Assembly (NCBI GenBank): GCA_051868045.1
Contig: JBJDZN010000078.1
Span: forward strand, 1-54,334
Reading direction: 5' to 3'
Length of the DNA: 54,334 bases
DNA from: Eubacteriales bacterium
GTDB lineage: Bacteria > Bacillota > Clostridia > Oscillospirales > CAG-272
The position numbers and the translations under genes are program-made. Below the pieces are notes generated by a model. It did not search any database. It was not told the origin of the DNA and saw only the letters and a program-made list of their open reading frames with translations. Positions 11,755 to 30,398 of the stretch are shown here, piece by piece (positions within the stretch are counted from its first letter, which is position 1; each line of letters starts with the position of its first letter).

Positions 11755-11843
11755 TGAAAGTCATTCCTTTCCGTTCGTTTCATATTTTTTCATTTCATTT
11801 TCGCTTTCGTTTGTGCCGGAACCGGCACAAACTGACGGTTTTA

Positions 11844-12914: not shown

Positions 12915-12962
12915 TTTCAAGTACCTGTTTGTTTCTTATTTATAGGTTGAATCGGCGTAAAC

Positions 12963-13928: not shown

Positions 13929-13970
13929 ATGCGTAATTCCTTTCGATTTGTCAGATTTTAGTGAAATCGG

Positions 13971-14798: not shown

Positions 14799-14971
14799 AA
14801 ATATAACCCTACCTTTCCGCTTTTCTGCCGGAAACCGGCAGAAAGCAACCTGAAAATGATCCCAATTTTCTTTTCCATGGGAATCGGAAATTCTGATGAC
14901 CGTCAGAAATTTTCACAAGGCTTCCTTTCTTCCTGTGTATGGCAGAAACCCTGTTCCTGACGGAGTCTGAA

Positions 14972-15002
14972 ACAGGGCTTCGGGCGAAAACCGAAGCCCT
15001 GT
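14972..15002 (-). terminator. Strong hairpin directly after the 15010-16191 oxidoreductase gene (possible partial terminator or processing site)
   Basis: On the minus strand: CAGGGCTTCGG-TTTTCGC-CCGAAGCCCTG followed by TTTCAG. The stem is perfect but the U-tract is weak. A second hairpin (TTCTGCCGG-TTT-CCGGCAGAA) lies at 14823-14843. Confidence 0.5.
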
Positions 15003-15009
15003 CAAAGTT

Positions 15010-16191: not shown

Positions 16192-16227
16192 AAACATTCT
16201 CCTTTTTTTGTATATTTTCTCCAGTAG

Positions 16228-16256: not shown

Positions 16257-16376
16257 ACTTTTCACAAGTCCATTATACCTTTTTGAAGATGGATTATCTA
16301 CCACTATCTTTACCATATCTTGAACAATTTTTACTTTTTGACTGGAATCAGAGAAAGAAGAGGCAGGGGGGTACGT

Positions 16377-17216
16377 ATGCGCAACGAAACCATATGGCTC
16401 AATGTTCCCGAAAGCAGGGTTCGGGTGGAGGAGTCGTTTGAAAACGGGGAAGGCAGAATCTGCGAGATGCACTACCACGATGAAATCGAACTGCTTCTGA
16501 TCCGTTCGGGGGCGGTGTCCTGTATCGTGGACGGCAAGGAATATCCGGCAAATGAGGGGGAGATTCTGGTTGTCAACTCCCGGGTTCCCCACTATACGGT
16601 GTCAAAGGCGAAGGGGTCCCGCTATCTTCTGCTTCAGTTCCGTATGGGTGAGTATCGGGAAGATGCCTTCCTGTCCGATCTGTACGCCTATCAGATCACC
16701 GGTCAGGTTCCCGCTCGGTCGCTGTCCGATCCCGCCATCGTTGATGCCATGGAGAAAATTCTTCGCGAATCCGACAGGCGGGAGCAGGCGTACAACTATG
16801 TGATCAAATCCTGCGTCTATCTCATCCTTGCCCGCCTGATCCGGCAGGAGGTTCTGCCCAATCCCGAAGAGAGCATCGATCGAACCGGTATCAAGCGGCT
16901 CCGTCCGGTGCTGGACTATATTGATAAGAACTACGCTGCCTCCATAACGCTGGAGGATGCAGGAGCCCTTCTGGGGCTCAATCCTTCCTATTTCTGCCGC
17001 CTCTTTCGTAGCGTGACCGGCTCTACCTTCACCGAATACCTGAATTATGTCAGAGTGAGGCATTCCGAAGTGCTTCTGCGCACCACCAATGAAAACATCA
17101 CTGCCGTGTCCATGGACGTGGGTTTTTCCTCGGTGACCTACTACAACCGGGTCTTCAAAAAGCTCATGAATTGCACTCCGTCCGTCTATCGCCAGCTTCG
17201 CTACCGCAATATCTGA
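16377..17216 (+). CDS. AraC-family transcriptional regulator (cupin sensor domain plus HTH)
   Basis: ATG at 16377 follows GGCAGGGGGG. The N-terminal cupin-like region includes MHYHDEIELLLIRSG. The C-terminal AraC HTH includes ITLEDAGALLGLNPSYFCRLFRSVTGSTFTEYLNYVRV...VGFSSVTYYNRVFKK. Confidence 0.9.
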   Translation: MRNETIWLNVPESRVRVEESFENGEGRICEMHYHDEIELLLIRSGAVSCIVDGKEYPANEGEILVVNSRVPHYTVSKAKGSRYLLLQFRMGEYREDAFLSDLYAYQITGQVPARSLSDPAIVDAMEKILRESDRREQAYNYVIKSCVYLILARLIRQEVLPNPEESIDRTGIKRLRPVLDYIDKNYAASITLEDAGALLGLNPSYFCRLFRSVTGSTFTEYLNYVRVRHSEVLLRTTNENITAVSMDVGFSSVTYYNRVFKKLMNCTPSVYRQLRYRNI

Positions 17217-17318: not shown

Positions 17319-17347
17319 TTTACAAATCGCCCGATTTGTGGTAAAAT
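17319..17347 (+). promoter_or_regulatory. Sigma-A promoter for the cytochrome c operon
   Basis: TTTACA (17319-17324), 17-nt spacer ending TGG, TAAAAT (17342-17347). It would give a leader of about 175 nt before the ResB-like gene. Confidence 0.65.
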
Positions 17348-17526: not shown

Positions 17527-18534
17527 TTGGTTTACATCAAGAAATTCAATCGGATAGCGTATATATTGCTGTCTGTGCTGGTGGGAATCTTCCTGCTGGT
17601 TGCCGTATGCGCATCCTTTGCCGGCGATAACAGCCTGTTCACCGGTGATGGCGAGTCGATTCTGAGTCAGTGGGTACCTCTGATTCTGTTTTCGGTTTAT
17701 GCCCTGATACAGGTAGGCTGTCTTGCCCTCTACCGCTTCGGATTTGGAGTCTATAAGATCGGTTTTGTCCTTCTTCATGTGGGAATTCTGGTCATGCTGG
17801 TGGGATTTCTCGCCGGTGCTCTGGGAGGAGAGCAGAGCTACTTCAATCTGACTACAGGCAGTTATTATGACGGCTATTATGACAGCACCGGTAACTACAA
17901 CAGCCTTGGTTTTGGCATTCAGATCACCGATTTCACGGTGGAAAAGTACGAAAGCGGCTCGGATAAACACTATCACGCCGACCTGCTGATCACTGACACG
18001 TCAACAGGCGTTCAGGAAGAGGCAGTGCTGGAAGTCAATCACACCTATCGGAACAAGGGATGGAAGATCTATCTCATGTCTTACAGCGACGGCAAAACGG
18101 TGGGAGAGCTTGCAAACCGTCAGATTGACAACTCCTTTGAGGCAAACGGCTGGACTGAGCTTGCCGAAAAGATTGCCGCAGTGTACCCTGTGGATGCCGA
18201 GACAAGTTATCTGTGCTATAATCTGAATTCGGGTACCTATCGTGAGACGACAACGGACGCTTTGACCGTCAGTGCCACCATGCCCCTTTACGGTCATGTC
18301 GTGGTCGAGAACGGAAAGCTGACGATCTATGTTTACCCCGAGCAGGAGCTTCTCCTGTTCAAACAGGATCCCGGAGAATATGCTGTGCTGGTCGGCATGA
18401 TCATGATCTTTGTGGGTGCCGTTATGACCTGTCTTCTGCCCCGGCGGAAAAATACCGATAAGGATGAGACAGTGAAGACGAATGCCGACAGGGATTGTGA
18501 AAAATCCTCGGGCGGAAAGGCGGGTAAATCATGA
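17527..18534 (+). CDS. resB: Cytochrome c biogenesis protein ResB/CcsB (System II), short form
   Basis: 335 aa. It has an N-terminal TM, a TM with a conserved His (FVLLHVGILVMLVG), the ResB-type periplasmic signatures ITDFTVEKYESGSDKHYHADLLI and VNHTYRNKGWKIYLMSY, and a C-terminal TM. The stop overlaps the ccsA start (ATGA at 18531-18534). The start is uncertain because the TTG at 17527 directly abuts AAGGAG (17521-17526). Confidence 0.8.
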   Translation: MVYIKKFNRIAYILLSVLVGIFLLVAVCASFAGDNSLFTGDGESILSQWVPLILFSVYALIQVGCLALYRFGFGVYKIGFVLLHVGILVMLVGFLAGALGGEQSYFNLTTGSYYDGYYDSTGNYNSLGFGIQITDFTVEKYESGSDKHYHADLLITDTSTGVQEEAVLEVNHTYRNKGWKIYLMSYSDGKTVGELANRQIDNSFEANGWTELAEKIAAVYPVDAETSYLCYNLNSGTYRETTTDALTVSATMPLYGHVVVENGKLTIYVYPEQELLLFKQDPGEYAVLVGMIMIFVGAVMTCLLPRRKNTDKDETVKTNADRDCEKSSGGKAGKS

Positions 18535-19349
18535 CAGGACCGATTTTAAAGGTTATCGCACTTATCGCCGCCTTTCTCTACGGCGGGGCATTTGTTCTGG
18601 AGCTGATGTACGGGAATGCCCGGAAAAAGAATGACGATGAACAGGCGGCGAAAAGACTCCGTCTGATCAGCCGGACTTTCTGGGGACTGGGATTTGCGGC
18701 AAATCTGACCCTTGTGGTCAACAACTATCTGCATAACGGGTATGTTCCTTTTGTCAGTATCTATCAGGTTCTGACCTTCCTTGGAATCTGCTTTCTTCCT
18801 ATCTATTTCTATATGCATCTCGTCCGCAGGGGAGAGTGGATGGCACGGTATTTTACACTGGTACCCACGGTGATCATGTTGGGACTGGTCTTCATGGATG
18901 CGACCGATGTCTGGGAATTTCCTCCTGCACTTCAGTCGCCCTGGTTCGTCCCCCATATTCTGGTTTATATGATTGCCTATACCATGGGGGCCGTGGAATT
19001 TCTCATGTGCGTTCAGTCGGTGTTCACCACCAGCCGAAAGGATAAACTCCGTCTGGAGGGCGGCGTGTATGACTGCGTCTGCTTCCTGTTCCCCTTCATG
19101 ACCATGGGAATGTTCTTCGGAGCCATCTGGGCAAACGAGGTCTGGGGAGCCTTCTGGGCATGGGACTTCAAGGAGATCTGGTCTCTGGCAACATGGCTGA
19201 TCTATATGCTGTATCTCCACTTCAGAAGGGAACCGAAGCTGAAAAACATCGCTCCCGTTTTTGCGCTGCTGGGATTTGTGGGAATCGTTATTACCTTCCT
19301 TTTTGTGCAGTTTATTCCCGCAGCGTCTATGCACACCTATTCAACTTAA
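18531..19349 (+). CDS. ccsA: Cytochrome c biogenesis protein CcsA/ResC (haem handling, WWD domain)
   Basis: 272 aa, polytopic. Tryptophan-rich WWD motif WANEVWGAFWAWDFKEIWSLATW, with flanking His residues (PHILVYM, YLHF). Confidence 0.9.
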   Translation: MTGPILKVIALIAAFLYGGAFVLELMYGNARKKNDDEQAAKRLRLISRTFWGLGFAANLTLVVNNYLHNGYVPFVSIYQVLTFLGICFLPIYFYMHLVRRGEWMARYFTLVPTVIMLGLVFMDATDVWEFPPALQSPWFVPHILVYMIAYTMGAVEFLMCVQSVFTTSRKDKLRLEGGVYDCVCFLFPFMTMGMFFGAIWANEVWGAFWAWDFKEIWSLATWLIYMLYLHFRREPKLKNIAPVFALLGFVGIVITFLFVQFIPAASMHTYST

Positions 19350-19398: not shown

Positions 19399-21675
19399 AT
19401 GAAGCCAAAAGAAAAACAATCATCCTCATCCAAGCCGGACAGCGGCAGAAAATTCCTGCTCAGACGCTTTGGCATCTTTGCGGGTTTGACTCTGACGATG
19501 GCGGCATTGTTGGTGGGTCTTCTTGCCTGCAACAGAAATAAGCCGGGGGACACGTCAACGGATAATACGAACACAACTCCCCCGTCCACGACCGTTCCTT
19601 CCGGTGATTATCATTCGCCATCGGGCATATCCATGTCGGAAGATGGCGCATATGCCTATGTATCGGATGAGACGGGCTGTGCAGTCTACAAGATCAACAC
19701 GGCAGACGGCAGTATTGCGGCAAGCTATGTATCGGATCTGGCAGTACATAACGTAGTCGCAAGCGGAGATCGGGTATATGTTACCGAAGGAGCACTGGGC
19801 GGCAAGCTGGTGGTGCTGGACACCAATCTGGCGACCGTAGGCTCTGTTGTCACCGGTCATACTCCTTATGACGTGGTGATCACCGGAAATACCGCATATG
19901 TGGCAAACCGCTTCTCCAACAGCGTATCGGTGGTGGATCTGGGATCCATGACTGAGACCAAGGAAATCCCCGTCACCAGAGAGCCTGAGTCCATGGCACT
20001 TGCCGGAACAGAACTGTTTGTTGCCTGCCATCTTCCCGAAGATGCTGCCAACAGTGATGTTGTCAGCGCAAATGTGGATGTCATCGACACGGCAAGCAAT
20101 ACCGTCACCAAATCCATCAGTCTGGTCAACGGTGCGGGAAATGTGAAGGACATCGTGGTCACTTCCGACGGAAAGACCGCCTATGTGTCTCATGTGGTCG
20201 CTCACTATCAGTATCCGACCACCCAGCTTGACGCCGGATGGGTCAATACCAATGGTATCTCGGTTATTGATGTTGCCTCCAAGGAGGTCAAATACACCTT
20301 CCTTTTGGACGATCTGGAGCATGGCGCAGCCAATCCCTGGGGTCTGGCACTGTCTGAGGATAATTCCTACCTTTACTGCGCAATTGCGGGAACCGGTGAA
20401 CTGATCCGCACCAATCTGTCCAAACTGTCAACGCTGGTTTCCCGTGCCGGGAAGACCGGTTCTGCGGTAAGCGATGTTTCCGAGATTGTCAACTACATTC
20501 CTTTTGCGGCAACCGTTAAGGAGCGTATCGAACTGGGTGGAACCGGTGCCAGAGCCATTGCTTATGCCAACGGCAATGTCTATGTTGCCGAGTATTTTAC
20601 CGGCGATGTGAAGGTTGTGGACGGTAAGAATATGTCCGTTTCTTCTACGCTGCCAATCGGAACTCAGCCCGAAGCCGATGATGTTCGTCAAGGCGAGATC
20701 TATTGGAACGATGCCACCATCTGTTACCAGAACTGGCAGTCCTGCTCTTCCTGTCATCCTGACGCAAGATCGGGCGGCTTTAACTGGGATGAGTTGGGCG
20801 ACGGAATCGGGACGCCCAAGAATACCAAGAGCATGGTGATGTCCCTGCGGACTCCCGCTGCACTGGCAACCGGTATCGAACCCACTGCCGAGAGTAATAT
20901 CTACGGAAGCGTCAGCGGCACGCCTCTTATGAATGCCACAGCCGAGTCGGGTCATATTTCTGAGACGATCATTGCTTATTTGAAGTCTATCATTCCTGAA
21001 TCTTCACCTTATCTGAACGATGACGGAACTTTGAGCGATCTGGCTAAGCAGGGTAAGGAACTGTTCTCTGAGTACAACTGCTCAAAGTGTCACCCTGCTC
21101 CCCTCTATACGGATATGACGATTCGTAATACCACAACAACGGAGTTTGATCCCTCATGGGAACAGAGTCCTATGGATACCCCCACTTTGGTTGAAATTTG
21201 GCGTAGTGCTCCGTGGACCTATATCGGACACTTTACCGATATGACCGAGCTGGTAAAGTATATGGCAAATCAGTGGGGAAAGACCATCTCCGATGAGAAT
21301 GCCAAGGCACTGGCAGAATATGTTCTCTCCATTGGTTTGGAGGGCGAGACCTACGGAGCAGAGCAGATTCTCAACAGCGACAGTTCCTACAATACGCTGG
21401 TACCCGGTACTACGATCCGCTCTCTGACGGTTCGCCAGCAGGAAGAGGGCGCACCGAATGCAACGGTTACCCTGACCCTGTATGATGCAAGCGGCAATGT
21501 GATCGGTTCCGCCAGCGGCAGTATCACCGCAGGCGACTACAATACCATCTTCAATGTCACGCTTGATAAGGAAATCTCCGTTCCCGAAAACATCGGAGCA
21601 GATGCGTACTATGTGGTATCCATTAAGGACGCATCCGGCAATAATCTGGCAACAGATTTGAAAATCACCAACTGA
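19399..21675 (+). CDS. Lipoprotein: YVTN-type beta-propeller fused to a di-haem cytochrome c peroxidase/MauG-like domain, plus a C-terminal beta-sandwich-like tail
   Basis: 758 aa from the ATG at 19399 (RBS AGGAGG 19384-19389). Lipobox LLAC (Cys44). Repeated propeller blades: AYAYVSDETGCAVYKIN, GDRVYVTEG..LVVLD, NTAYVANRFSNSVSVVD, KTAYVSH, NVYVAEYFTGDVKVVD. Haem sites are CSSCH (nt 20743-20757) in GEIYWND...QSCSSCHPD and CSKCH (nt 21079-21093) in GKELFSEYNCSKCHPAPLYTD. TPTLVEIWRSAPWTYIGHF follows, matching the CCP PSLRN..APY.H.G pattern. Confidence 0.85.
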   Translation: MKPKEKQSSSSKPDSGRKFLLRRFGIFAGLTLTMAALLVGLLACNRNKPGDTSTDNTNTTPPSTTVPSGDYHSPSGISMSEDGAYAYVSDETGCAVYKINTADGSIAASYVSDLAVHNVVASGDRVYVTEGALGGKLVVLDTNLATVGSVVTGHTPYDVVITGNTAYVANRFSNSVSVVDLGSMTETKEIPVTREPESMALAGTELFVACHLPEDAANSDVVSANVDVIDTASNTVTKSISLVNGAGNVKDIVVTSDGKTAYVSHVVAHYQYPTTQLDAGWVNTNGISVIDVASKEVKYTFLLDDLEHGAANPWGLALSEDNSYLYCAIAGTGELIRTNLSKLSTLVSRAGKTGSAVSDVSEIVNYIPFAATVKERIELGGTGARAIAYANGNVYVAEYFTGDVKVVDGKNMSVSSTLPIGTQPEADDVRQGEIYWNDATICYQNWQSCSSCHPDARSGGFNWDELGDGIGTPKNTKSMVMSLRTPAALATGIEPTAESNIYGSVSGTPLMNATAESGHISETIIAYLKSIIPESSPYLNDDGTLSDLAKQGKELFSEYNCSKCHPAPLYTDMTIRNTTTTEFDPSWEQSPMDTPTLVEIWRSAPWTYIGHFTDMTELVKYMANQWGKTISDENAKALAEYVLSIGLEGETYGAEQILNSDSSYNTLVPGTTIRSLTVRQQEEGAPNATVTLTLYDASGNVIGSASGSITAGDYNTIFNVTLDKEISVPENIGADAYYVVSIKDASGNNLATDLKITN

Positions 21676-21692: not shown

Positions 21693-24600
21693 ATGAACGA
21701 GACAAAACGAAAAGGACTTCTTGGAAAAATTCTGGTTCTCTCTGTGGCACTTGTCATGATCGTGACGCTGGTGTGCATTGCACTGCCGTCCGAAAGTTAT
21801 GCGGCGACCACCATTGAGAGATCCGAAATGCTGGACGATATGATGAACATGGCGACCAGCTATGTTGTCGTCTACCATAAGCAGCTTGGCGGATCCCACT
21901 ACGCCTATTCCGAAGGTTTGGCAGAAGAGTCAAACGATGGCAGTACCAGCGTAGAGGGTAACGAATCAGTCTTCAATCCCGGTTCCAAGATGACTCTTAT
22001 CACCCTTTCCTATCAGGATGGTAATGTCGTTAAGGAAGAAGCAACACTTGTCAGATGCAGCAGCGGTGTCATCCGTGATCCTGACGTGTCGCCGGACGGA
22101 ACGAAGATCGTATTCTCCATGAAGGAGAAGTCAACCGATGATTACCACCTGTACATTTTCGATCTGACCACCGGTAAGAAGACGCAGATCACCTTCGGCA
22201 GCGGTGTTGCTGATATCGAACCCGTCTTCTGTGCCGACGGCAGCATTATCTTCAACTCTACCCGTGACATTCAGACGGTTGATTGCTGGATAACTCCTGT
22301 CTCCAACCTCTATAAGTGTGATGCCGACGGCAGTAATATTACCCGTCTGGGATACGATCAGGTTCATACCACCTATCCCACCACAACCGAAGACGGTCGT
22401 ATCCTTTATACCCGTTGGGACTACAACGACCGGACTCAGATGTATGTCCAGGCAATCTTCCAGATGTTTGCCGACGGTACCAATCAGACCGAGGTTTACG
22501 GTAACGATCTGTCCAACCCTACTTCGCTGATTCACACCCGTGAAATCCCCGGCGCAGACGGTAAGTATATCACCATCACCTGCGGACATCACCAGGTACA
22601 GTGCGGTAAACTGGCGATCCTGAATACCAATCTGGGCAGAGACGTGTCGTCTGCAATCGACTATGTCTGGGACGACAGTTACACGAAGCAGCTTGAAAGT
22701 TCCTACGATAATGATACGGCATATTATCAGCAGGGAAGAGTCTATAAGTACCCTTATGCCATCAATGAGGACACCTTCCTTGTTTCTACAGCAGAAACCT
22801 ATTCCGGTGTCAGCACCGCCTTCAATATCGAACTGATTAACACAAATGGAGACTCGGTTGTGATTGCCGAAGGTAATACCAGCTTCCCGGCAAGCCAGAT
22901 CGTTCCGATCAAGACGACAGCTCTGTTCAACCGTGCCTCTCTTGTCGACTACAGTATGAATTACGGCTACTTCTATGTCGGCAATGTTTATGACGGTCAG
23001 GATATTGCGGTCGGTACCGTCAAGTATCTGCGTGTTGTAGGACTTGAGTTCCGCTCTTCTGCAATCGGTGCAACCAACGGCAGAGGCACCGGTTCTTCCG
23101 ACCCCTACTCCCCTGTTTCAACCGGTAACGGTTCATGGGATGTCAAGGAGGTTTTGGGTATTGTACCTGTCTACGAGGATGGATCAGCACTCTTTACCTG
23201 TCCTGCGGGCATACCGGTCTACTTCCAGCTATTGGATGAGAACGGCTATGTGGTGCAGACCATGCGAAGCTGGTCTACCCTCCAACCCGGCGAATACTTC
23301 TCCTGTATCGGATGCCATGTGGATAAGAATCAGGCACCCTCTACCAATGCCAAAGTCACGCTTGCCATGAATAACGGCGTCTGCGAGTTGCAGCCTGATC
23401 TGTGGATGTCCTCCTTTGAGGAATATGAGGGCTTCGATCCCTATGTGGACGATCCGATCGGATTTGATTATCTTACCGTTGTTCAGCCCATTCTGGATCA
23501 GAGCTGCGTAAGTTGTCACAGCGACTCTGTCACCGCTTATAAGGATATTGCGGCAACTGCACTGGGCGAAGGCTTTGATGCGACACTGGCTGACTACCTG
23601 TTCACGACCCGTGACAGCTGGTACTATACCACTACGACACCTGCGGCTGATTGGAAGACCGCCGATGTCAGCGCAGACTGGACACTGGACTACGGTCCCT
23701 TCGGTAAGATCGGTACCGCTCCCGGCTCCATCAATACCGTCTGGACTTCCAATGAGATCTATCTGAGAAAGACGGTTTCGGTCACCAATGCTGAACTGAA
23801 CTCCTACTTGCTGAATCTCTACCTGGCTTATACCGGTACGGTTGAGATTTCGGTCAACGGAACCGTTATCTATACCGGATCCGGCGAACAGACCCAGTTT
23901 ACCAATGTCACCCTGTCCGGCGACGCAGTCAAAGCGTTCAAGCTTGGAAACAATGAGATCGCAGTCAAAGTGACGGCAACCTCTTCGGGCGGTCAGTTCT
24001 TTGACATGGCATTGATCCGGAGTCTGGGTGGCTCGTCCGGAAGCTCTGGCGGAACGGTGACCCTCTTCTCCAAGGGATCCGAATGGACTTATACCACCAG
24101 TTCTGCCGACAGTTACGGCTTCGGAACTGCTGGCGATTGGACTTCAGCCGACTTCGATACCACCGGATGGCTGACCGGTAAGACTCCCTTCGGCAACCGT
24201 GTGGTTGGTCAGACGACCGATTGGGCGACCAAGGGCAATAACTACCTGTGGGCAAGAAAAACCTTCACCGTAGATGATCTTTCCGATCTGGGTGCCTCCT
24301 TCGGTCTGTACATGAACGTCTTCTATGACGATGACTTCTATGTCTTCCTCAACGGTCACCTGATCTTCAGTAACCCCGGAAAGTGGAACGATGCTTATGA
24401 GGACATCAAGACCACCGGCGCAGCCTATGTAAAGCAGGGCGAGAACGTGATCGCCATCTGCCTGCATCAACATGACGGCGGCTATGAGTTTGACATGAGC
24501 CTGTATACGGTTCCGACGGCAAGCAATGTGGAAATCTCTCTGCAGAGTACCGATGTTTATGCCCGCCGTATGAAGAAGGCATTCCCTCTGTCCTATCTGG

Positions 24601-25763
24601 TGCTGACTGCATCCAAGGGCGAGAGCAGCGGACAGTTTGTTGCAACTTCTGTCAATAAGTATACCAACTGGGTATCTTCCATGAGCCAGTGTGAAATGCT
24701 CAGCCCCTATTCCTACGGCGCATATAAGTCCAATCTGATCAAGATGCTCCGTGAAGGTCACGGTGATCTGACCGAAGAGGAAATTCGTGCGATCGCTTGC
24801 TGGATTGACCTCGGCGTTCCCTGCTACGGTACTTACGATGTGAAGGAGTACTGGGGAACCAATGAGATCCGCGAGTTCGAGGAAGAGGAAAATAAGCGTG
24901 AGTTCTACGAAAAACTCAACGAGTATGCTATCCTTGCCCGTGCCGGTCAGACCCCTGCCGGTGAGATTACCATCTCCTATACTCACAGTTCCAGTGTGGA
25001 TTCCGTTACCGGTGAGGGTATGGTTACCCTGTACTACGATTCCAAATATGCGGCAGGTGATACCATTTCGGTAAAACTTCCCGACGGTCAGAAGTATCTG
25101 GGACTGTCCCTGTCCTCCAGAGTCGGAGAGAGCATCATTTACTGCCCGAACTCCACCTTTGAGATGACCCTGCCCGATCTCAGAACCTGCTATCCCAATA
25201 CCATGGATCCCAACCTGGCAGTCGATTATATTGTGAATACCATTACCGCAAGAATCGTTCCCGAGAGCGAATTGACGGAGGTTCACAATCTTGCCCAGAA
25301 CTCTTATGACCTGACCAATGCCAGTGGTTCCTATCCTCATGTGACGGCATCCTCGGTCAAGGAAAATAAGGCATATTTCGAAGCCCGCAACCTGATTGAC
25401 GGCTTCACGGCAAACCGTGATAAGGGCGAGTATCCGAGCCAGTCCTGGGAGGCTCAGAAGTTTGACGAAAGCACGACGCTGACCATCGACTTCGGTCGGA
25501 CCGTGAAGGTCGATGAACTGGTATTCTATATCCGTCGCGCAAGCGGTGACTCTTACTTCACCAATTGCACGGTAACGCTGTCTGACGGAACCGTTCTGCC
25601 TCTGTCGCTGACCGATTCCCGTGACGCACAGACCATTGATCTCGGCGGCGTTGAGACCACGTCCCTGACCTTCTCCGGATTTGTTGTCGAGACTTCGATC
25701 AACAACGGTTCTTATGCCGGAATTTCCGAGATTCAGGTTATGGGTACCGAGGTACTCGGATAA
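21693..25763 (+). CDS. Giant secreted protein: PD40/TolB-like beta-propeller, two CxxCH haem c sites (HzsA-like arrangement), two galactose-binding-like modules and a C-terminal F5/8 type C (discoidin) domain
   Basis: 1356 aa with RBS AGGAGG 21678-21683 and signal peptide ...CIALPSESYA/AT. PD40-type blades: DPDVSPDGTKIVFSM...YHLYIFDLTTGKKTQITFG, PVFCADGSIIFNS, TTEDGRILYTRWDYNDR. Haem sites are CIGCH (nt 23304-23318) and CVSCH (nt 23505-23519). Two similar modules occur: WTLDYGPFGK...IYLRKTV...VEISVNGTVIY and GWLTGKTPFGN...LWARKTF...DDFYVFLNGHLIF. The C-terminus is discoidin-like: NLIDGF...TLTIDFGRTVKVDELVFYIRR...GISEIQVMG. Confidence 0.85.
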   Translation: MNETKRKGLLGKILVLSVALVMIVTLVCIALPSESYAATTIERSEMLDDMMNMATSYVVVYHKQLGGSHYAYSEGLAEESNDGSTSVEGNESVFNPGSKMTLITLSYQDGNVVKEEATLVRCSSGVIRDPDVSPDGTKIVFSMKEKSTDDYHLYIFDLTTGKKTQITFGSGVADIEPVFCADGSIIFNSTRDIQTVDCWITPVSNLYKCDADGSNITRLGYDQVHTTYPTTTEDGRILYTRWDYNDRTQMYVQAIFQMFADGTNQTEVYGNDLSNPTSLIHTREIPGADGKYITITCGHHQVQCGKLAILNTNLGRDVSSAIDYVWDDSYTKQLESSYDNDTAYYQQGRVYKYPYAINEDTFLVSTAETYSGVSTAFNIELINTNGDSVVIAEGNTSFPASQIVPIKTTALFNRASLVDYSMNYGYFYVGNVYDGQDIAVGTVKYLRVVGLEFRSSAIGATNGRGTGSSDPYSPVSTGNGSWDVKEVLGIVPVYEDGSALFTCPAGIPVYFQLLDENGYVVQTMRSWSTLQPGEYFSCIGCHVDKNQAPSTNAKVTLAMNNGVCELQPDLWMSSFEEYEGFDPYVDDPIGFDYLTVVQPILDQSCVSCHSDSVTAYKDIAATALGEGFDATLADYLFTTRDSWYYTTTTPAADWKTADVSADWTLDYGPFGKIGTAPGSINTVWTSNEIYLRKTVSVTNAELNSYLLNLYLAYTGTVEISVNGTVIYTGSGEQTQFTNVTLSGDAVKAFKLGNNEIAVKVTATSSGGQFFDMALIRSLGGSSGSSGGTVTLFSKGSEWTYTTSSADSYGFGTAGDWTSADFDTTGWLTGKTPFGNRVVGQTTDWATKGNNYLWARKTFTVDDLSDLGASFGLYMNVFYDDDFYVFLNGHLIFSNPGKWNDAYEDIKTTGAAYVKQGENVIAICLHQHDGGYEFDMSLYTVPTASNVEISLQSTDVYARRMKKAFPLSYLVLTASKGESSGQFVATSVNKYTNWVSSMSQCEMLSPYSYGAYKSNLIKMLREGHGDLTEEEIRAIACWIDLGVPCYGTYDVKEYWGTNEIREFEEEENKREFYEKLNEYAILARAGQTPAGEITISYTHSSSVDSVTGEGMVTLYYDSKYAAGDTISVKLPDGQKYLGLSLSSRVGESIIYCPNSTFEMTLPDLRTCYPNTMDPNLAVDYIVNTITARIVPESELTEVHNLAQNSYDLTNASGSYPHVTASSVKENKAYFEARNLIDGFTANRDKGEYPSQSWEAQKFDESTTLTIDFGRTVKVDELVFYIRRASGDSYFTNCTVTLSDGTVLPLSLTDSRDAQTIDLGGVETTSLTFSGFVVETSINNGSYAGISEIQVMGTEVLG

Positions 25764-25800: not shown

Positions 25801-25860
25801 ATCCCCCATAGTGCAGACACTTGAAACCATCTTTCAAGGTCGCACTATGGGGGATTTTAT
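25801..25860 (+). terminator. Intrinsic terminator closing the cytochrome c operon
   Basis: 14-bp perfect stem ATCCCCCATAGTGC / GCACTATGGGGGAT with an inner hairpin (CTTGAAA/TTTCAAG), followed by TTTAT. Confidence 0.8.
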
Positions 25861-25951: not shown

Positions 25952-25981
25952 TTGACAAAACATATGTTCGTATGATATAAT
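25952..25981 (+). promoter_or_regulatory. Sigma-A promoter for the helicase gene
   Basis: TTGACA (25952-25957), 18-nt spacer, TATAAT (25976-25981). Confidence 0.65.
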
Positions 25982-28190: not shown

Positions 28191-28219
28191 TTGACATTCG
28201 GCTCCATTTACGGTAAAAT
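28191..28219 (+). promoter_or_regulatory. Sigma-A promoter for the GH25 gene
   Basis: TTGACA (28191-28196), 17-nt spacer, TAAAAT (28214-28219). The ORF-track start at 28191 is this -35 box, so it was rejected as a start codon. Confidence 0.7.
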
Positions 28220-28262
28220 AGGGGAAAATACCCCAAATTTTACCGAAGGGAATGGTCAGATT

Positions 28263-30398
28263 ATGAAGAAAAAGCTGCTACTCGTGTTTTTGATTGTGTT
28301 CATCCCCGTGATGGGTTTTACTTTTCATATTGTGGCAGAGTCTGCCGGACAGGCAACTGTCCAGGGAGGGGTGACCGTGCTTACACAATCGGAGGGCGGG
28401 CTTGAGGTTCGCAATGTCTACGCATCCGAGGTCACATATTCTTCCGCCACGCTGAATATCAGTTTCGGACGGATCAGCGTGTCCGATTGTACCCTGCTGC
28501 TGGGCACCTCCCCTGAAGCCATGGAGGAGGTTTCTACGCAAAACCTCGGAAAGGCGGCGTCCTCCCTGTCCATGACGGCATCCGACCTTGCCCCCCATAC
28601 CCGCTATTATTACGCCTTCCTGATCGGAACAGAGGAGGCGGTCATCCGTACTGACAGTTGGTCCTTTGTCACGCCCGACGACTATTATAACGGCTCACAG
28701 GGCGGTGCCAATGACGAAAATGCCGAATACGGCATTGACGTGTCCTTCTGGAAGGGTTCCATCGACTTTACCAAGCTGGCTGACCAGAATATCGACTTCG
28801 TGATTCTGCGTGCCGGGTCAACCAAGGGGAAAGATACCTATTTTGAGGAGCATTATGAGCAGGCAAAAGCGGCGGGACTGAAGGTCGGCGTGTATTACTA
28901 CTCCTATGCCATGAATATGGAGGAGATCGCTCAAGATGCCGACTGGTTTCTGGAGTACATTGCCGGGAAAACCTTTGATCTTCCCGTCTATCTGGACATT
29001 GAAAACATCAGTCAGGAAGAAAATCTCAGCCGTCCCCTTCTTACGGAAATGGCGATCGAATTCTGTGAACGGATTGCCGATGCGGGCTACTATCCCGGAA
29101 TCTATGCCAATCGGAACTGGTTTACCAACTACCTGAATTTTGACACTCTTTCTCCTGTCTATGAGCTGTGGATTGCCTCATGGACCAAGAGCGGAGAGCC
29201 CGACGGCGATTACAGTGAAAACTACGGAATGTGGCAGTATTCCAGCAGTGGAAAGCTCGATGGGGTCAATGGGGCAGTCGATATGAACGTCTGCTATAAG
29301 GATTATACCAGCCTGATCCGTCAGGAAGAACGGTCAACCTACGGTTTCTACGACTACGACGGAAGTTTGCTGATCACGGCTGAATATTATCCCGGCAATC
29401 GGATCTATGCACCCGACCTGACGCCCGCCCGCCCCTGCGACGACGAATATGAGTACACCTTCAGCGGATGGATCGGACTTGATGAAAATACGGTTGCCGA
29501 CAGTGCCGGTGGAAGTTTTACGGCAAGGTATACCCCAAACGAGCATGCTTGGGGCGATTGGCAGGAGATTTCTCCCTTTGAGCGGGTCAAGGTCTGCGAG
29601 AACTGCGGACGCACCCTGTCCGAACTCATAGACGATCCCACCTGCGGTCAGGGGCTTACTTGGTCGATTGACGGAGAGACTTTGACCGTGATCGGTAACG
29701 GGGCAATACTGTCCGGCGAGTCGGCAATCCGTTTTCCGTGGGCAAGTCGGGCGACCGAAATCACAAAACTGGTGATCTCGGAGGGAGTCACCGTTATCGG
29801 AGATCATGCCTTTGACGGATTCACGGCTCTGACCGAGGTTCAACTGCCTTACACGCTGACTACCATCGGAGAGTATGCCTTCTGCGGCGATGTCGGACTG
29901 ACCGAGATCGCAATCCCTGCACAGGTCCGGACGATTTCAGAATATGCTTTTGAAGGCTGTACGGCACTTTCAACGGTCAAGGGATACGAAAACAGTGCGG
30001 CTCAGACGATGGCAGAATCTGCCGGTGTTTCGTTCGTCACGCTGTCGCCGTGGCTTCAGAAGAGCGGTCGATTTGGAAACGGGGTCAGTTGGTACCTTTA
30101 CAGCGACGGAAGTCTCCTGTTTGCCGGCATCGGAGCCATTCTGCCCGACGGCGGCTATCAGGCATACAGCCAACAGATTCTTTCTGTCAAAGTTGGTGCG
30201 GCGATCACCGAAATTCCAGAGGGTGCCTTTCTGGACTTCACATCTTTGGAGTCGGTGGAATTTCTGGGTAAGAACCCCGTCAAAGTGGGAGACTCCGCTT
30301 TTGTCGGATGCACCCGTCTGTTCACGATAAACCTTCCGAGAGGGTCGGAGTTTGCCGAAAACGCCTTTGACGGCACCCCGATTGTGTCGGACTTCTGA
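28263..30398 (+). CDS. Secreted GH25 muramidase (lysozyme) fused to BspA-type leucine-rich repeats
   Basis: Signal/TM segment MKKKLLLVFLIVFIPVMGF. An N-terminal Fn3-like segment is present (SATLNISF...TRYYYAF). GH25 core: GIDVSFWKGSIDF, DFVILRAG, GVYYYSYA, VYLDIE, MWQYSS. C-terminal repeats of the type I.EGVT.IGD.AF.G...L..V.LP are present (e.g. VISEGVTVIGDHAFDGFTALTEVQLPYTLTTIGEYAFCGD). Confidence 0.85.
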   Translation: MKKKLLLVFLIVFIPVMGFTFHIVAESAGQATVQGGVTVLTQSEGGLEVRNVYASEVTYSSATLNISFGRISVSDCTLLLGTSPEAMEEVSTQNLGKAASSLSMTASDLAPHTRYYYAFLIGTEEAVIRTDSWSFVTPDDYYNGSQGGANDENAEYGIDVSFWKGSIDFTKLADQNIDFVILRAGSTKGKDTYFEEHYEQAKAAGLKVGVYYYSYAMNMEEIAQDADWFLEYIAGKTFDLPVYLDIENISQEENLSRPLLTEMAIEFCERIADAGYYPGIYANRNWFTNYLNFDTLSPVYELWIASWTKSGEPDGDYSENYGMWQYSSSGKLDGVNGAVDMNVCYKDYTSLIRQEERSTYGFYDYDGSLLITAEYYPGNRIYAPDLTPARPCDDEYEYTFSGWIGLDENTVADSAGGSFTARYTPNEHAWGDWQEISPFERVKVCENCGRTLSELIDDPTCGQGLTWSIDGETLTVIGNGAILSGESAIRFPWASRATEITKLVISEGVTVIGDHAFDGFTALTEVQLPYTLTTIGEYAFCGDVGLTEIAIPAQVRTISEYAFEGCTALSTVKGYENSAAQTMAESAGVSFVTLSPWLQKSGRFGNGVSWYLYSDGSLLFAGIGAILPDGGYQAYSQQILSVKVGAAITEIPEGAFLDFTSLESVEFLGKNPVKVGDSAFVGCTRLFTINLPRGSEFAENAFDGTPIVSDF

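What the first reader, a model, noticed from the sequence alone, without database searches (positions are those of the whole stretch)
21693..25763. 1356-aa secreted PD40-propeller / di-haem protein with sugar-binding-like and discoidin modules: a HzsA-like architecture outside anammox bacteria
SEEN: a signal peptide is followed by TolB/PD40-like blades (DPDVSPDGTKIVFSM, ILYTRWDYNDR..., FQMFADGTNQTEVYGN) and a middle region. Two CxxCH sites lie 67 residues apart (CIGCH at residue 538, CVSCH at residue 605). Two paralogous ~130-aa modules resemble galactose-binding-like domains (W..GK.PFG......W.....LW.RK.F...........L......DD.F.VFLNG), and the C-terminus is an F5/8 type C-like domain. ESTABLISHED: the hydrazine synthase alpha subunit has an N-terminal beta-propeller, a middle domain binding one haem and a C-terminal domain binding a second haem. 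Its partners are a propeller (beta) and a CCP-like di-haem protein (gamma). INFERENCE: together with the preceding gene, the domain inventory reproduces the alpha/beta/gamma composition of hydrazine synthase (four haems, two propellers, one CCP-like unit). Here it is decorated with carbohydrate- or surface-binding modules. Hydrazine synthesis itself is implausible in this genome. A related but undescribed haem-dependent extracellular chemistry, possibly on a glycan-associated or host-derived substrate, is the interesting possibility.
Basis: partly seen in the sequence, partly recalled or inferred. Interest (0 to 1): 0.8.

Follow-up and report, generated by a model that had tools for sequence, protein, structure and literature searches.

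The report
Hydrazine-synthase-like haem complex in a Clostridium
A gut-type fermenting bacterium (Clostridia) carries a four-gene operon for a four-haem enzyme on the cell surface. It is a true but distant relative of anammox hydrazine synthase, it carries sugar-binding modules, and it almost certainly does some other, still unknown chemistry.

Summary
ORF 21693-25763 encodes a 1356-aa secreted protein with a TolB-like propeller, a strong HZS_alpha middle domain (Pfam E 2.9e-31), two CxxCH sites (538, 605), two paralogous galactose-binding-like modules and a C-terminal DUF7402/discoidin domain.

Hydrazine synthase alpha (5c2v_A) is its only sequence hit in the PDB and by far its best fold hit (Foldseek E 1.5e-22, 706 columns). 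The upstream lipoprotein (19399-21675) is a beta-gamma fusion. Its best PDB hits are HZS beta and HZS gamma, ahead of any cytochrome c peroxidase.

The two genes sit behind resB-like and ccsA-like genes (haem attachment) in one operon. That cassette recurs in 7 of 9 distinct related Clostridia loci. In PVC bacteria the two proteins also occur fused in one tetrahaem chain.

New points:
- The second cytochrome domain is split by a ~340-aa insert that holds the two sugar-binding-like modules.
- His1023 is its likely distal ligand.
- The residues that define real hydrazine synthase (Tyr591, gamma-Cys165, gamma-His144) are absent.

HZS homologues outside anammox were published in 2023 and 2025, but not this clade. 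Here the complex is surface-displayed, is sometimes dockerin-tagged and sits beside its own maturation genes. The function is unknown.

The parts
16320..17216 (+). AraC-family regulator (cupin sensor domain plus HTH), directly upstream of the operon
   Evidence: Pfam HTH_AraC 2.1e-21, AraC_binding 2.7e-10. An AraC gene lies within about 8 kb of the cassette in 6 of 9 distinct Clostridia loci.
17319..17347 (+). Sigma-70-like promoter candidate for the operon
   Evidence: TTTACA-17-TAAAAT with extended TG, 10 of 12 matches. This is a consensus match only.
17527..18534 (+). ResB-like (CcsB) cytochrome c biogenesis protein, short form; the start codon is uncertain
   Evidence: Pfam ResB 3e-22. Hydrophobic segments are present. 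Homologues in related loci are 230-255 aa.
18531..19349 (+). CcsA-like haem-handling protein (System II); overlaps resB-like by 4 nt
   Evidence: Pfam Cytochrom_C_asm 2.7e-28. WWD motif WGAFWAWD at residue 205 and six hydrophobic segments.
19399..21675 (+). HZS beta-gamma-fusion-like di-haem lipoprotein, 758 aa. Lipobox Cys44 (19528-19530); 7-bladed propeller about residues 70-420; CCP-like di-haem domain about 426-645; C-terminal beta-sandwich 650-758
   Evidence: PDB phmmer: 5c2v_B 1.6e-19 and 5c2v_C 2.2e-10. With the profile: 1.5e-29 and 6.9e-28. Model pLDDT 85.6; Foldseek 5c2v_B E 3.4e-24, TM 0.85. NCBIfam hydrazine_BC 2.2e-21, far below its cut-off. SD AGGAGG 9 nt upstream.
20743..20757 (+). 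CSSCH, gamma-I-like haem site of the beta-gamma-like protein
   Evidence: Invariant in 57/57 homologues. Aligns with gamma Cys102/Cys105/His106 of 5c2v_C.
21079..21093 (+). CSKCH, gamma-II-like haem site
   Evidence: Invariant in 57/57. Aligns with the second CxxCH of 5c2v_C.
21693..25763 (+). HZS alpha-like di-haem protein, 1356 aa (the finding)
21693..21806 (+). Signal peptide (residues 1-38, ...SESYA/A)
   Evidence: Hydrophobic segment and conserved A-x-A-like end in homologues. Inferred; no predictor was run.
21807..23012 (+). N-terminal domain with TolB/PD40-type beta-propeller. It holds residues that are invariant across the whole family, including Cys198, His300 and the RWDYNDR motif 241-247
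   Evidence: TIGR02800 3.9e-14, PD40. Foldseek to TolB 7e-11. Invariants.
23013..23318 (+). HZS_alpha middle domain ending in CIGCH (23304-23318), the alpha-I-like haem site
   Evidence: PF18582 E 2.9e-31, residues 441-542. Aligns with 5c2v_A 497-562 including CSGCH. Motif invariant in 59/59.
23445..23594 (+). First half of the alpha-II-like cytochrome domain, with CVSCH (23505-23519)
   Evidence: Aligns with 5c2v_A 'IQPILDAKCAMCH'. Conserved in 57/59.
23595..24527 (+). Insert in the cytochrome domain: two paralogous galactose-binding-like beta-sandwich modules (23595-24029 and 24057-24527) joined by a GSSGSSGG linker
   Evidence: BLASTP 27% identity, E 2e-7. GH2_N-like. Foldseek hits to GH2 N-terminal domains and profile hits to 7kmm and 3w5m. 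Absent from compact relatives such as P0318.
24540..24947 (+). Second half of the alpha-II-like cytochrome domain, with His1023 (24759-24761) as the likely distal haem ligand
   Evidence: Residues 961-1070 align with residues 615-733 of the 740-aa relative P0318, directly after its second CxxCH. His1023 is kept in 57/59. It is Tyr exactly in the two homologues that lost CxxCH no. 2.
24960..25277 (+). Ig-like beta-sandwish spacer
   Evidence: All-beta in the model at pLDDT about 90. No significant Pfam hit.
25338..25739 (+). C-terminal DUF7402 / F5-8 type C (discoidin-like) domain
   Evidence: DUF7402 4.5e-10, F5_F8_type_C 8.2e-7, F5_F8_type_C_2 7e-5.
25801..25855 (+). Intrinsic-terminator-like hairpin that ends the operon
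   Evidence: dG -39.6 kcal/mol, z = -10.1, followed by UUUUA. A perfect sigma-70 promoter for the next gene (uvrD/pcrA-like) lies at 25952-25981.

Best explanation
The gene encodes the alpha-like subunit of a hydrazine-synthase-like (HZS-like) tetrahaem complex in an uncultured Eubacteriales (Clostridia) bacterium.

SHOWN:
- It is homologous in sequence and fold to HZS alpha.
- Its upstream partner is a lipoprotein homologous to a fused HZS beta-gamma.
- The two genes follow resB-like and ccsA-like haem-attachment genes in one promoter-to-terminator unit.
- This cassette, and all four CxxCH sites, are conserved across many Clostridia.
- PVC bacteria have the closest non-clostridial relatives, including natural alpha-beta-gamma fusions.
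- The residues that make HZS a hydrazine synthase are missing.

INFERRED:
- The two proteins form a complex on the outer face of the membrane. It is tethered by the lipid anchor of the beta-gamma-like subunit and by the glycan-binding-like modules of the alpha-like subunit. In some species dockerins take over this tethering.
- As in HZS, there are two catalytic haems and two relay haems. The catalytic ones are a gamma-I-like haem in the CCP-like domain and a canonically His-ligated alpha-I-like haem at the propeller/middle-domain interface. The relay ones are a gamma-II-like haem and an alpha-II-like haem with His609/His1023 ligation.
- Neither the operon nor its variable neighbourhood encodes an electron donor. 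The most likely chemistry is therefore self-contained: a small oxidant (H2O2, O2 or NO-type) is activated at the CCP-like site, and this is coupled to conversion of a second substrate at the alpha-I site. The sugar-binding modules would place the enzyme on a glycan surface (the cell's own wall, plant fibre or host glycan).

It is not a hydrazine synthase.
For: Homology of the alpha-like protein:
- PF18582 E 2.9e-31.
- The only PDB sequence hit is 5c2v_A.
- Model pLDDT 86, pTM 0.78. Foldseek top hit 5c2v_A at E 1.5e-22 over 706 columns, with the next hit, TolB, at 7e-11.

Homology of the partner:
- 5c2v_B at 1.5e-29 and 5c2v_C at 6.9e-28, against 1e-15 for the best CCP.
- Foldseek 5c2v_B at TM 0.85.

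Operon structure:
- 4-nt overlap, then 49-nt and 17-nt gaps between the genes, with SD sites.
- Promoter-like site and strong terminator.
- ResB and CcsA Pfam hits and the WWD motif.

Conservation:
- The beta-gamma-like gene lies directly upstream of the alpha-like gene in all 9 fetched loci L001-L009, and again in L012 and L013.
- The ResB-CcsA-BC-A cassette is present in 7 of 9 distinct loci.
- All four CxxCH sites are invariant or nearly so.

Fusion evidence:
- P0408, P0438, P0469, P0483 and P0488 carry four CxxCH each. They are 40-42% identical to the alpha-like protein and 31-35% identical to the beta-gamma-like protein.

Surface location:
- Lipobox Cys44. About two thirds of the homologues match a lipobox pattern, and the rest have a TM anchor or an N-terminal dockerin.
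- Dockerins occur on 12 of the 120 listed alpha-like proteins and 3 of the 120 listed beta-gamma-like proteins.

Not HZS:
- No Tyr follows CxxCH no. 1; Asn546 is present in 58/59.
- The segment that holds gamma-Cys165 is absent, and the gamma-His144 position is Val/Ala.
- NCBIfam scores are 40.8 against a cut-off of 800, and 75.7 against 1250.
Against: - No activity, haem occupancy or localisation data exist for any member of the family.
- The inter-haem Trp that CCP and MauG need is replaced by Val/Ala. No conserved sixth ligand for the gamma-II-like haem was found. Peroxide activation of the CCP/MauG type is therefore not assured.
- An electron donor could be encoded elsewhere in the genome.
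- Two PVC relatives (L010, L011) have no beta-gamma-like gene next to the alpha-like gene. The alpha-like unit may therefore work alone in some lineages.
- The sugar-binding-like modules may serve only for retention on the cell surface.
Confidence: 0.6

Rival explanations
1. A glycan-directed oxidative enzyme. The complex uses H2O2 or O2 at the CCP/MauG/RoxA-like di-haem module to oxidise or cleave a polysaccharide or another polymer. The inserted CBM-like modules, the discoidin domain or (in other species) dockerins and the cellulosome would hold that polymer in place. This would be a haem-based counterpart of lytic polysaccharide monooxygenases.
For: - Galactose-binding-like modules are inserted into the cytochrome domain, and a DUF7402/discoidin domain sits at the C-terminus.
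- F5/8-type C and DUF7402 domains recur on PVC relatives too.
- Dockerin, Big_2 and ricin domains occur on homologues.
- AraC-type sugar regulators are often adjacent. Glycoside hydrolases (GH3, GH18, GH38, GH67) and Gfo/Idh/MocA plus xylose-isomerase-like TIM-barrel genes lie nearby.
- There are faint RoxA-like_Cyt-c hits on beta-gamma-like homologues.
Against: - The flanking genes are not conserved between loci. The CAZyme neighbours differ each time, and such genes are common in these genomes anyway.
- The most conserved part is the propeller/alpha-I core, 41-47% identical between Clostridia and PVC bacteria. That fits a universal small substrate better than one specific glycan.
- The inter-haem Trp of MauG/CCP is missing.
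- These organisms are strict anaerobes with little O2 or H2O2 available.
Confidence: 0.15
2. Surface detoxification or conversion of reactive nitrogen or oxygen species (NO, hydroxylamine, nitrite, H2O2). The complex would keep HZS-type small-molecule haem chemistry without forming hydrazine. Possible reactions are NO or NH2OH reduction or disproportionation, or peroxide removal. This would protect an anaerobe at a host or oxic interface.
For: - The only characterised relative converts NO to NH2OH at haem gamma-I and NH2OH at haem alpha-I (PMC12607021 abstract).
- The CCP-like fold is specifically closest to HZS gamma.
- The four-haem layout is conserved over a very wide family: 991 clusters at E<1e-30.
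- No partner genes are needed for a dismutation-type reaction.
Against: - The HZS active-site residues (gamma-Cys165 and its neighbourhood, gamma-His144, alpha-Tyr591) are not kept.
- No nitrogen-cycle or oxidative-stress genes lie in the window or the related loci.
- Simple detoxification does not explain the glycan-binding decorations.
Confidence: 0.15
3. A genuine hydrazine synthase, that is, anammox-type N-N bond formation in a Clostridium.
For: - The subunit composition is the same, and so is the gene order found in anammox bacteria (beta-gamma before alpha) (PMC12758564).
- KEGG-based pipelines already label such genes 'hydrazine synthase subunit' in Clostridium from ruminant hindgut (PMC12784710).
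Against: - Identity to Kuenenia alpha is only 16% in the structural alignment.
- NCBIfam equivalog scores are 20-fold below the cut-offs.
- The Tyr591 ligand, the gamma-Cys165 cross-link and gamma-His144 are all absent.
- No hydrazine dehydrogenase or HAO-type gene is in the window. The genome context is that of a fermenter: LDH, HPr kinase, T-box.
Confidence: 0.02
4. A non-catalytic role. The pair would act as a surface electron conduit (extracellular electron transfer), a haem-binding or haem-storage protein, or an adhesin that merely contains cytochrome domains.
For: - Surface-anchored c-type cytochromes carry out extracellular electron transfer in some Gram-positive bacteria (background knowledge).
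- The protein carries adhesin-like decorations: discoidin, Ig-like, and dockerin in relatives.
Against: - There are only two haems per subunit. In HZS the four haems do not form a continuous wire (background knowledge of 5C2V).
- About 56 polar and glycine positions are at least 95% conserved in the propeller/middle domain across phyla. That points to an active site, not a scaffold.
- No quinol-oxidising partner is encoded in the cassette.
Confidence: 0.06

Closest known systems
Hydrazine synthase HZS-alpha/beta/gamma of 'Candidatus Kuenenia stuttgartiensis' (PDB 5C2V/5C2W; fused beta-gamma in Scalindua)
   Same: - Subunit and domain inventory: alpha is propeller + HZS_alpha middle domain + two c-haems; beta is a 7-bladed propeller with a helical insert in a late blade; gamma is a CCP-like di-haem domain.
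- Gene order: beta-gamma before alpha.
- It is the best, or the only, PDB match for both proteins.
   Different: - About 16% identity in the alpha structural alignment.
- No Tyr591-type proximal ligand, no gamma-Cys165 third thioether and no gamma-His144.
- The alpha-II cytochrome domain is split by two CBM-like modules, with extra Ig-like and discoidin domains.
- The complex is lipoprotein-anchored on a Gram-positive surface rather than inside an anammoxosome.
- A dedicated ResB/CcsA pair sits in the operon.
- No anammox partner enzymes are present.
HZS-like alpha plus fused beta-gamma homologues in Planctomycetota, Verrucomicrobiota, Desulfobacterota and Acidobacteriota (clades I-IV of Hagglund et al. 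2025, PMC12758564; hzs-like genes of Dalcin Martins et al. 2023, PMC10732223)
   Same: - Co-located alpha-like and fused beta-gamma-like genes.
- Conserved alpha-I CxxCH with a canonical pocket predicted.
- HZS key residues not conserved.
- Function unknown.
- The nearest non-clostridial relatives found here are PVC proteins at 37-47% identity.
   Different: - The organism is a Clostridium (Bacillota), a group not discussed in either paper.
- Beta-gamma lies upstream of alpha, the reverse of clades I-III.
- No FG-GAP/CRTAC1 or ABC-SBP neighbours are present.
- The gamma-His144 position is Val/Ala, not Trp.
- The alpha-II site, including a distal His, is retained.
- CBM-like insert, dockerin variants and an adjacent System II maturation pair are present.
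Bacterial di-haem cytochrome c peroxidase / MauG / RoxA superfamily
   Same: The C-terminal half of the beta-gamma-like protein has the two-CxxCH CCP fold: profile hits to 3o5c at 1e-15 and 1iqc at 1.5e-10. A conserved Glu498 lies where CCPs have the distal Glu region (this alignment is inferred).
   Different: - It is fused to a propeller.
- The inter-haem Trp is replaced by Val/Ala.
- No conserved Met or Tyr sixth ligand was found.
- It scores closer to HZS gamma than to any CCP.
- Pfam CCP_MauG scores below its cut-off (19.9 against 25.6).
System II cytochrome c maturation (CcsB/ResB plus CcsA/ResC)
   Same: Pfam ResB and Cytochrom_C_asm hits, the WWD motif and multiple TM segments.
   Different: - The ResB-like protein is short: 230-335 aa against a 486-position profile, matching only the central part.
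- The pair is dedicated to one two-gene client, in a lineage that generally lacks c-type cytochromes (background knowledge).

Membership tests
Bona fide hydrazine synthase (anammox HZS) | Alpha subunit: propeller + HZS_alpha middle domain + C-terminal haem domain, with two CxxCH | tested here: met
   PF18582 E 2.9e-31. Foldseek 5c2v_A E 1.5e-22 over 706 columns. CxxCH at 538 and 605.
Bona fide hydrazine synthase (anammox HZS) | Haem alpha-I ligated by Tyr591 (His+4), with the CxxCH His turned to a Zn site | tested here: not met
   The sequence after the motif is CIGCH-VDKNQAPS. Position His+4 is Asn in 58/59, and there is no conserved Tyr within 8 residues. The Zn ligand Cys303 could not be aligned.
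Bona fide hydrazine synthase (anammox HZS) | Gamma-Cys165 third covalent haem bond, and gamma-His144 | tested here: not met
   The 'ssldrvCgr' segment of 5c2v_C falls in a gap of the query and of the family profile. The His144 column is Val/Ala/Ile.
Bona fide hydrazine synthase (anammox HZS) | Scores above the NCBIfam equivalog cut-offs (hydrazine_alpha, hydrazine_beta, hydrazine_gamma, hydrazine_BC) | tested here: not met
   40.8 against 800; 70 against 560; 47.3 against 625; 75.7 against 1250 bits.
Bona fide hydrazine synthase (anammox HZS) | Genomic company of hydrazine dehydrogenase/HAO-type enzymes and an anammox lifestyle | tested here: inconclusive
   None is present in the 54-kb window or in the flanks of 13 related loci. 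The whole genome was not available.
HZS-like alpha/beta-gamma homologues outside anammox (Hagglund 2025 clades I-IV) | Co-located alpha-like and fused beta-gamma-like genes | tested here: met
   There is a 17-nt gap between them in the window. They are adjacent in L001-L009, L012 and L013.
HZS-like alpha/beta-gamma homologues outside anammox (Hagglund 2025 clades I-IV) | Alpha upstream of beta-gamma, with an FG-GAP/CRTAC1 gene in the cluster (clades I-III) | tested here: not met
   Beta-gamma is upstream here. No FG-GAP family appears among the Pfam hits of neighbours.
HZS-like alpha/beta-gamma homologues outside anammox (Hagglund 2025 clades I-IV) | Trp at the gamma-His144 position (clades I-III) | tested here: not met
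   The column is Val 18, Ala 15, Ile 12 of 57.
HZS-like alpha/beta-gamma homologues outside anammox (Hagglund 2025 clades I-IV) | Phylogenetic placement inside one of the published clades, e.g. clade IV | not tested
   The published sequences were not retrievable with the tools. The PVC relatives found may overlap with clade IV.
Di-haem cytochrome c peroxidase / MauG | Two CxxCH in the CCP fold | tested here: met
   Profile against PDB CCPs 1e-15 to 1e-7. Pfam CCP_MauG is weak only.
Di-haem cytochrome c peroxidase / MauG | Conserved inter-haem Trp, and a His/Met (or His/Tyr) second haem | tested here: not met
   There is no Trp at the aligned position and no conserved Met or Tyr downstream of the second CxxCH; Met615 is present in only 33/57. 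This rests on sequence alignment, not on a structure with haem.
System II cytochrome c biogenesis (ResB/CcsA) | ResB-family and CcsA-family membrane proteins, with the WWD motif in CcsA | tested here: met
   PF05140 3e-22, PF01578 2.7e-28. WGAFWAWD.
TolB (Tol-Pal system) | Full-length match above the TIGR02800 cut-off, and a Tol-Pal context | tested here: not met
   52.4 against 343 bits, covering the propeller blades only. The organism is Gram-positive-type and has no tol/pal neighbours.

The most novel reading that the evidence does not exclude
The complex is a haem-based oxidative enzyme aimed at glycans and displayed on the cell surface or on cellulosomes of anaerobic gut and rumen Clostridia. 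The CCP-like di-haem module would activate H2O2 or O2. The alpha-like propeller/haem site would then oxidise a polysaccharide or other surface polymer held by the CBM-like modules inserted in the cytochrome domain. This would be a functional analogue of LPMOs built on the hydrazine-synthase scaffold.
Probability: 0.12. Interest if true: 0.9.

Novelty: new variant of a known kind. Interest (0 to 1): 0.62.

Why it matters
1. Hydrazine synthase was long treated as unique to anammox bacteria. This locus shows that a complete alpha/beta-gamma tetrahaem unit is common in fermentative Clostridia and comes with its own haem-attachment genes. That widens the family well beyond the PVC and Desulfobacterota homologues published so far, and places c-type cytochromes on the surface of bacteria usually regarded as cytochrome-free.

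2. The family is very large: 991 clusters at 50% identity with E<1e-30, and all named members found here are annotated only as hypothetical, generic-domain or HZS_alpha-domain proteins. A compact four-gene cassette would be a tractable entry point for finding out what the ancestral HZS-type chemistry is.

3. The CBM-like insert, the discoidin domain and the dockerin variants link haem redox chemistry to glycan surfaces in anaerobes, which is unexpected.

4. There is a practical consequence. KEGG-type pipelines already call such genes 'hydrazine synthase subunit' in Clostridium and read this as gut anammox (PMC12784710). That is very likely a mis-annotation of this family.

Tried and rejected
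- The genome-contig scan with the single protein returned only three loci.
- The listing of cluster members gave an organism name for only 1 of 10 distant representatives.
- The P0509 look-up (a Verrucomicrobiaceae isolate) was not on record.
- A multimer prediction of the pair was not possible, and the natural fusions exceed the 1200-aa limit. Model coordinates are not exposed, so haem-site distances, the putative tunnel and the position of Cys198, His300 and His1023 could not be measured.
- Pfam on inserted module 1 alone gave nothing significant.
- No Rfam element lies upstream of the operon; the window holds only a T-box before valS and one tRNA.
- Literature searches for dockerin with c-type cytochrome, and for hydrazine synthase with Clostridia or rumen, found no description of this clade.
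- TolB identity was rejected: only the propeller matches, and the score is far below the cut-off.
- Recent horizontal transfer of the operon into this genome finds no support: GC is 0.51, the same as the flanks.
- Chance occurrence of the CxxCH motifs was rejected on their conservation.

Full report
**1.

The ORF runs from 21693 to 25763 on the + strand and encodes 1356 aa from an ATG. An AGGAGG ribosome-binding site lies about 10 nt upstream. CIGCH is at residues 538-542 and CVSCH at 605-609. These are the only two CxxCH motifs among 20 cysteines.

Pfam finds the following:
- HZS_alpha (PF18582) at E 2.9e-31 (108 bits against a cut-off of 26.6) on residues 441-542
- PD40 repeats
- a weak Glyco_hydro_2_N match in the second inserted module
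- DUF7402 and F5/8 type C at the C-terminus

On the isolated C-terminal segment, DUF7402 scores 4.5e-10 and F5_F8_type_C 8e-7. The two roughly 150-aa modules (residues 635-779 and 789-945, joined by GSSGSSGG) are paralogous, with 27% identity at E 2e-7.

**2. The similarity to hydrazine synthase is homology, not a coincidence of domains**

*The alpha-like protein.* Searched against all PDB sequences, its only hit is 5c2v_A, hydrazine synthase alpha (E 4.6e-7; 1.6e-13 with a family profile). The alignment covers the middle domain up to the CxxCH, and also the 'QPILD..C..CH' segment of the second haem. An AlphaFold2 model of residues 40-1215, built on 59 homologues, has pLDDT 86 and pTM 0.78. 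Its best PDB match is 5c2v_A at E 1.5e-22 over 706 columns (TM 0.54 on the target). TolB propellers follow only at 7e-11.

*The upstream gene.* It spans 19399-21675 and encodes 758 aa. My early calls started 3 nt too far upstream, so their residue numbers are one too high. Its only strong PDB sequence hits are HZS beta (residues ~70-406) and HZS gamma (residues ~426-568). With a 57-sequence profile these score 1.5e-29 and 6.9e-28, well ahead of the best cytochrome c peroxidase at 1e-15. Its model (pLDDT 85.6, pTM 0.83) has 5c2v_B as top fold match, at E 3.4e-24 and TM 0.85. It is thus a beta-gamma fusion of the kind known from Scalindua, with CSSCH at 449-453 and CSKCH at 561-565.

**3. Operon and cassette**

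Directly upstream lie a ResB-like gene (17527-18534) and a CcsA-like gene (18531-19349). The CcsA-like protein carries the WWD motif WGAFWAWD. Together these are a System II cytochrome c maturation pair.

The four genes are separated by -4, 49 and 17 nt. A promoter-like site sits at 17319-17347. After the alpha-like gene there is a hairpin at 25801-25855 (dG -39.6 kcal/mol, z -10) followed by U's. The next gene, a UvrD-type helicase, has its own perfect sigma-70 promoter. An AraC-type regulator (16320-17216) sits just before the operon.

The window belongs to a fermentative Firmicute: HPr kinase, MecA, LDH, PlsY, Der, and a T-box before valS. The closest genome record is a 'Eubacteriales bacterium' MAG at 88% identity.

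**4. Conservation**

- The alpha-like protein has 1145 homologues at E<1e-5. The 120 best are 40-100% identical, and every one that carries a name is a Clostridia/Eubacteriales/Lachnospiraceae/Oscillospiraceae MAG protein, almost all labelled 'hypothetical'.
- The beta-gamma-like protein has a parallel family of 793.
- In all nine loci fetched first, a beta-gamma-like ORF with two CxxCH lies directly upstream of an alpha-like ORF with two CxxCH. The same holds in L012 and L013.
- The full ResB-CcsA-BC-A cassette is present in the window, L002, L003, L004/5, L008, L012 and L013. It is absent only from L006/7 and L009.
- The flanks otherwise differ from locus to locus, so the cassette is self-contained.
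- An AraC gene is nearby in six of nine distinct loci.
- In L009 the pair follows, on the same strand, a run of Gfo/Idh/MocA and xylose-isomerase-like TIM-barrel genes. The same gene types lie divergently upstream of the AraC gene in the window.

**5. Haem sites**

CxxCH no. 1 is invariant in 59/59 sequences and no. 2 is kept in 57/59. The two sequences that lost motif no. 2 (P0080, P0102) are exactly the two in which His1023 has become Tyr. This correlated loss marks His1023 as the probable distal ligand of the alpha-II-like haem.

BLAST against compact relatives shows how the domain is built. In the 740-aa protein P0318, window residues 590-613 align to 566-589 and window residues 961-1070 align to 615-733. 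The alpha-II-like cytochrome domain of the window protein is therefore split by an insert of about 340 aa that consists of the two galactose-binding-like modules. Other relatives carry one such module or none. I did not find this split described in the papers I read.

**6. The wider family**

A full HMMER scan of 1.84 billion cluster representatives with residues 40-646 gave 9297 hits at E<1e-3, 2913 at E<1e-10 and 991 at E<1e-30. Of the 158 best representatives and cluster members, 135 have exactly two CxxCH, 50-67 residues apart.

The nearest non-clostridial relatives are 37-47% identical. Those with names come from Planctomycetota, Verrucomicrobiota, Lentisphaeria and a 'Ca. Brocadiia' MAG. 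Many also carry F5/8-type C or DUF7402 domains.

Five of them (P0408, P0438, P0469, P0483, P0488; 1403-1580 aa, four CxxCH each) are natural fusions. The N-terminal part is 40-42% identical to the alpha-like protein and the C-terminal part 31-35% identical to the beta-gamma-like protein. This Rosetta-stone fusion is the best available evidence that the two window proteins work as one unit, given that a multimer prediction could not be run.

About 56 positions are at least 95% conserved across roughly 116 diverged sequences. They include Arg128, Arg191, Cys198, Arg218, the RWDYNDR motif (241-247), His300, Arg525, Trp527 and Glu534. This pattern is what one expects of an active site around haem alpha-I.

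**7. It is not a hydrazine synthase**

According to Hagglund et al. (PMC12758564), these features are specific to HZS:
- alpha-Tyr591 as haem ligand, with His587 turned to a Zn site
- a third thioether from gamma-Cys165
- gamma-His144
- a Glu in the beta loop

Here the residues after CxxCH no. 1 are VDKNQAPS. Position His+4 is Asn in 58/59, and no Tyr is conserved. The segment that carries gamma-Cys165 is a gap in both the pairwise and the profile alignments. The gamma-His144 column is Val/Ala/Ile. The NCBIfam equivalog models score 20-fold below their cut-offs. The beta-loop Glu was not examined here. No anammox partner genes are nearby.

**8. What is already known**

Dalcin Martins et al. 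2023 (PMC10732223) reported hzs-like genes in Phycisphaerae and KSB1 MAGs. They proposed that HZS-like enzymes form a broader family with other substrates.

Hagglund et al. 2025 (PMC12758564) described co-located alpha and fused beta-gamma homologues in Planctomycetota, Verrucomicrobiota, Desulfobacterota and Acidobacteriota (clades I-IV). They found the key residues not conserved and no experimentally characterised member.

Neither paper mentions Clostridia, dockerins or a linked maturation system. The present clade also differs from their clades I-III in three ways: gene order, the lack of an FG-GAP/CRTAC1 neighbour, and Val/Ala instead of Trp at the His144 position. Searches for 'hydrazine synthase' with Clostridia or rumen found no description of it. 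One ruminant metagenome paper does assign KEGG K20934 'hydrazine synthase subunit' to Clostridium and reads it as anammox potential (PMC12784710). That is probably this family being mis-named.

**9. How it most likely works**

*Shown:*
- four conserved c-haem sites on two co-encoded proteins, which are fused in some relatives
- a dedicated haem-attachment pair
- export signals on both proteins: a lipobox Cys44 on the beta-gamma-like protein, and a signal peptide on the alpha-like protein

*Inferred:* the complex sits on the outer face of the membrane. It is held there by the lipid anchor and by the glycan-binding-like modules. In other species a TM helix anchors it instead, or dockerins do: 12 of the 120 listed alpha-like proteins and 3 of the 120 listed beta-gamma-like proteins carry one, N-terminal in the latter.

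By analogy with HZS there would be two catalytic haems and two relay haems. The catalytic haems are gamma-I-like and alpha-I-like, the latter probably with the canonical His542 ligand. The relay haems are gamma-II-like and alpha-II-like, the latter ligated by His609 and His1023.

The cassette carries no electron donor and its neighbourhood is not conserved. I therefore favour a self-contained redox reaction. A small oxidant would be handled at the CCP-like site, and this would be coupled to conversion of a second substrate at the alpha-I site, with the sugar-binding modules positioning the enzyme on a glycan surface.

My confidence that this is an HZS-like surface tetrahaem complex and not a hydrazine synthase is high (about 0.9). 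My confidence in the specific redox scheme is low (about 0.3-0.4). The overall figure of 0.6 reflects both.

The rival readings differ mainly in the substrate:
- glycan oxidation (0.15)
- detoxification of reactive nitrogen or oxygen species (0.15)
- a non-catalytic conduit or adhesin (0.06)
- real hydrazine synthesis (0.02)

Against a CCP/MauG-type mechanism, the inter-haem Trp is missing and no sixth ligand for the gamma-II-like haem is conserved.

**10. Verdict**

It is a new variant (clostridial, surface-displayed, CBM-inserted, with a linked maturation system) of a recently recognised but functionally uncharacterised kind: HZS-like complexes outside anammox bacteria. The function remains open, and the cassette is a good experimental handle on it.

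Noticed in passing
window 12963-16197 (- strand) and L009 2244-7380: Two xylose-isomerase-like TIM-barrel genes and a Gfo/Idh/MocA oxidoreductase are transcribed divergently from the AraC gene that precedes the haem operon. In L009 the same gene types (2 Gfo, 3 TIM-barrel) lie on the same strand directly upstream of the beta-gamma/alpha pair. This may be a functional link to sugar oxidation (3-keto-glycoside or inositol-type chemistry), or it may be coincidence.
   Followed up: partly
P0408, P0438, P0469, P0483, P0488 (L014 8001-12419 for P0408): Single polypeptides of 1403-1580 aa from PVC-type metagenome contigs fuse the alpha-like and beta-gamma-like units and carry four CxxCH. In L014 the fusion gene follows a sigma-54 response regulator and a histidine kinase, and it precedes three MacB/FtsX-type permease genes.
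   Followed up: partly
window residues Cys198, His300 and 241-247 (RWDYNDR) of the alpha-like protein (DNA about 22284-22286, 22590-22592, 22413-22433): A single Cys, a His and an Arg/Asp-rich motif in the propeller are at least 95% conserved from Clostridia to PVC bacteria. They are candidate active-site or haem-pocket residues, and Cys198 might be a distal ligand. Their position relative to haem alpha-I could not be measured.
   Followed up: no
L010 8001-11954 and L011 7273-10287: PVC relatives of the alpha-like protein have no beta-gamma-like gene next to them. One has an N-terminal SBP_bac_10 (DUF1559, pseudopilin-like) region and a C-terminal DUF7402. The alpha-like unit may therefore also work alone, or with a partner encoded elsewhere.
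   Followed up: partly
window 17527-18534: The ResB-like ORF matches only the central third of the ResB profile. Its homologues in related cassettes are 230-255 aa, against 335 aa for the longest ORF here (TTG start). The true start is probably further downstream. This is a minimal CcsB.
   Followed up: no
PMC12784710 (literature): KEGG K20934 'hydrazine synthase subunit' is attributed to the genus Clostridium in ruminant hindgut metagenomes and discussed as anammox. This is most likely a mis-annotation of the beta-gamma-like family described here.
   Followed up: partly
window 44183-44460 (-) and 41513-44131 (-): A T-box leader (105.9 bits) lies upstream of the valyl-tRNA synthetase gene, as is typical of Firmicutes. 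A tRNA-Met gene is at 6909-6985.
   Followed up: yes
window 28191-30398 (+) and 9448-12950 (+): There is a GH25 muramidase fused to BspA-type leucine-rich repeats. Elsewhere, a secreted CAP-domain protein is followed by two ORFs (315 and 404 aa) with no Pfam match. BspA-LRR proteins also flank the cassette in L003 and L009.
   Followed up: no
window 1221-2450 (-), 3054-4007 (-), 7661-9247 (-), 53056-54300 (-): Four sizeable ORFs (317-528 aa) have no Pfam hit at E<1e-4.
   Followed up: no
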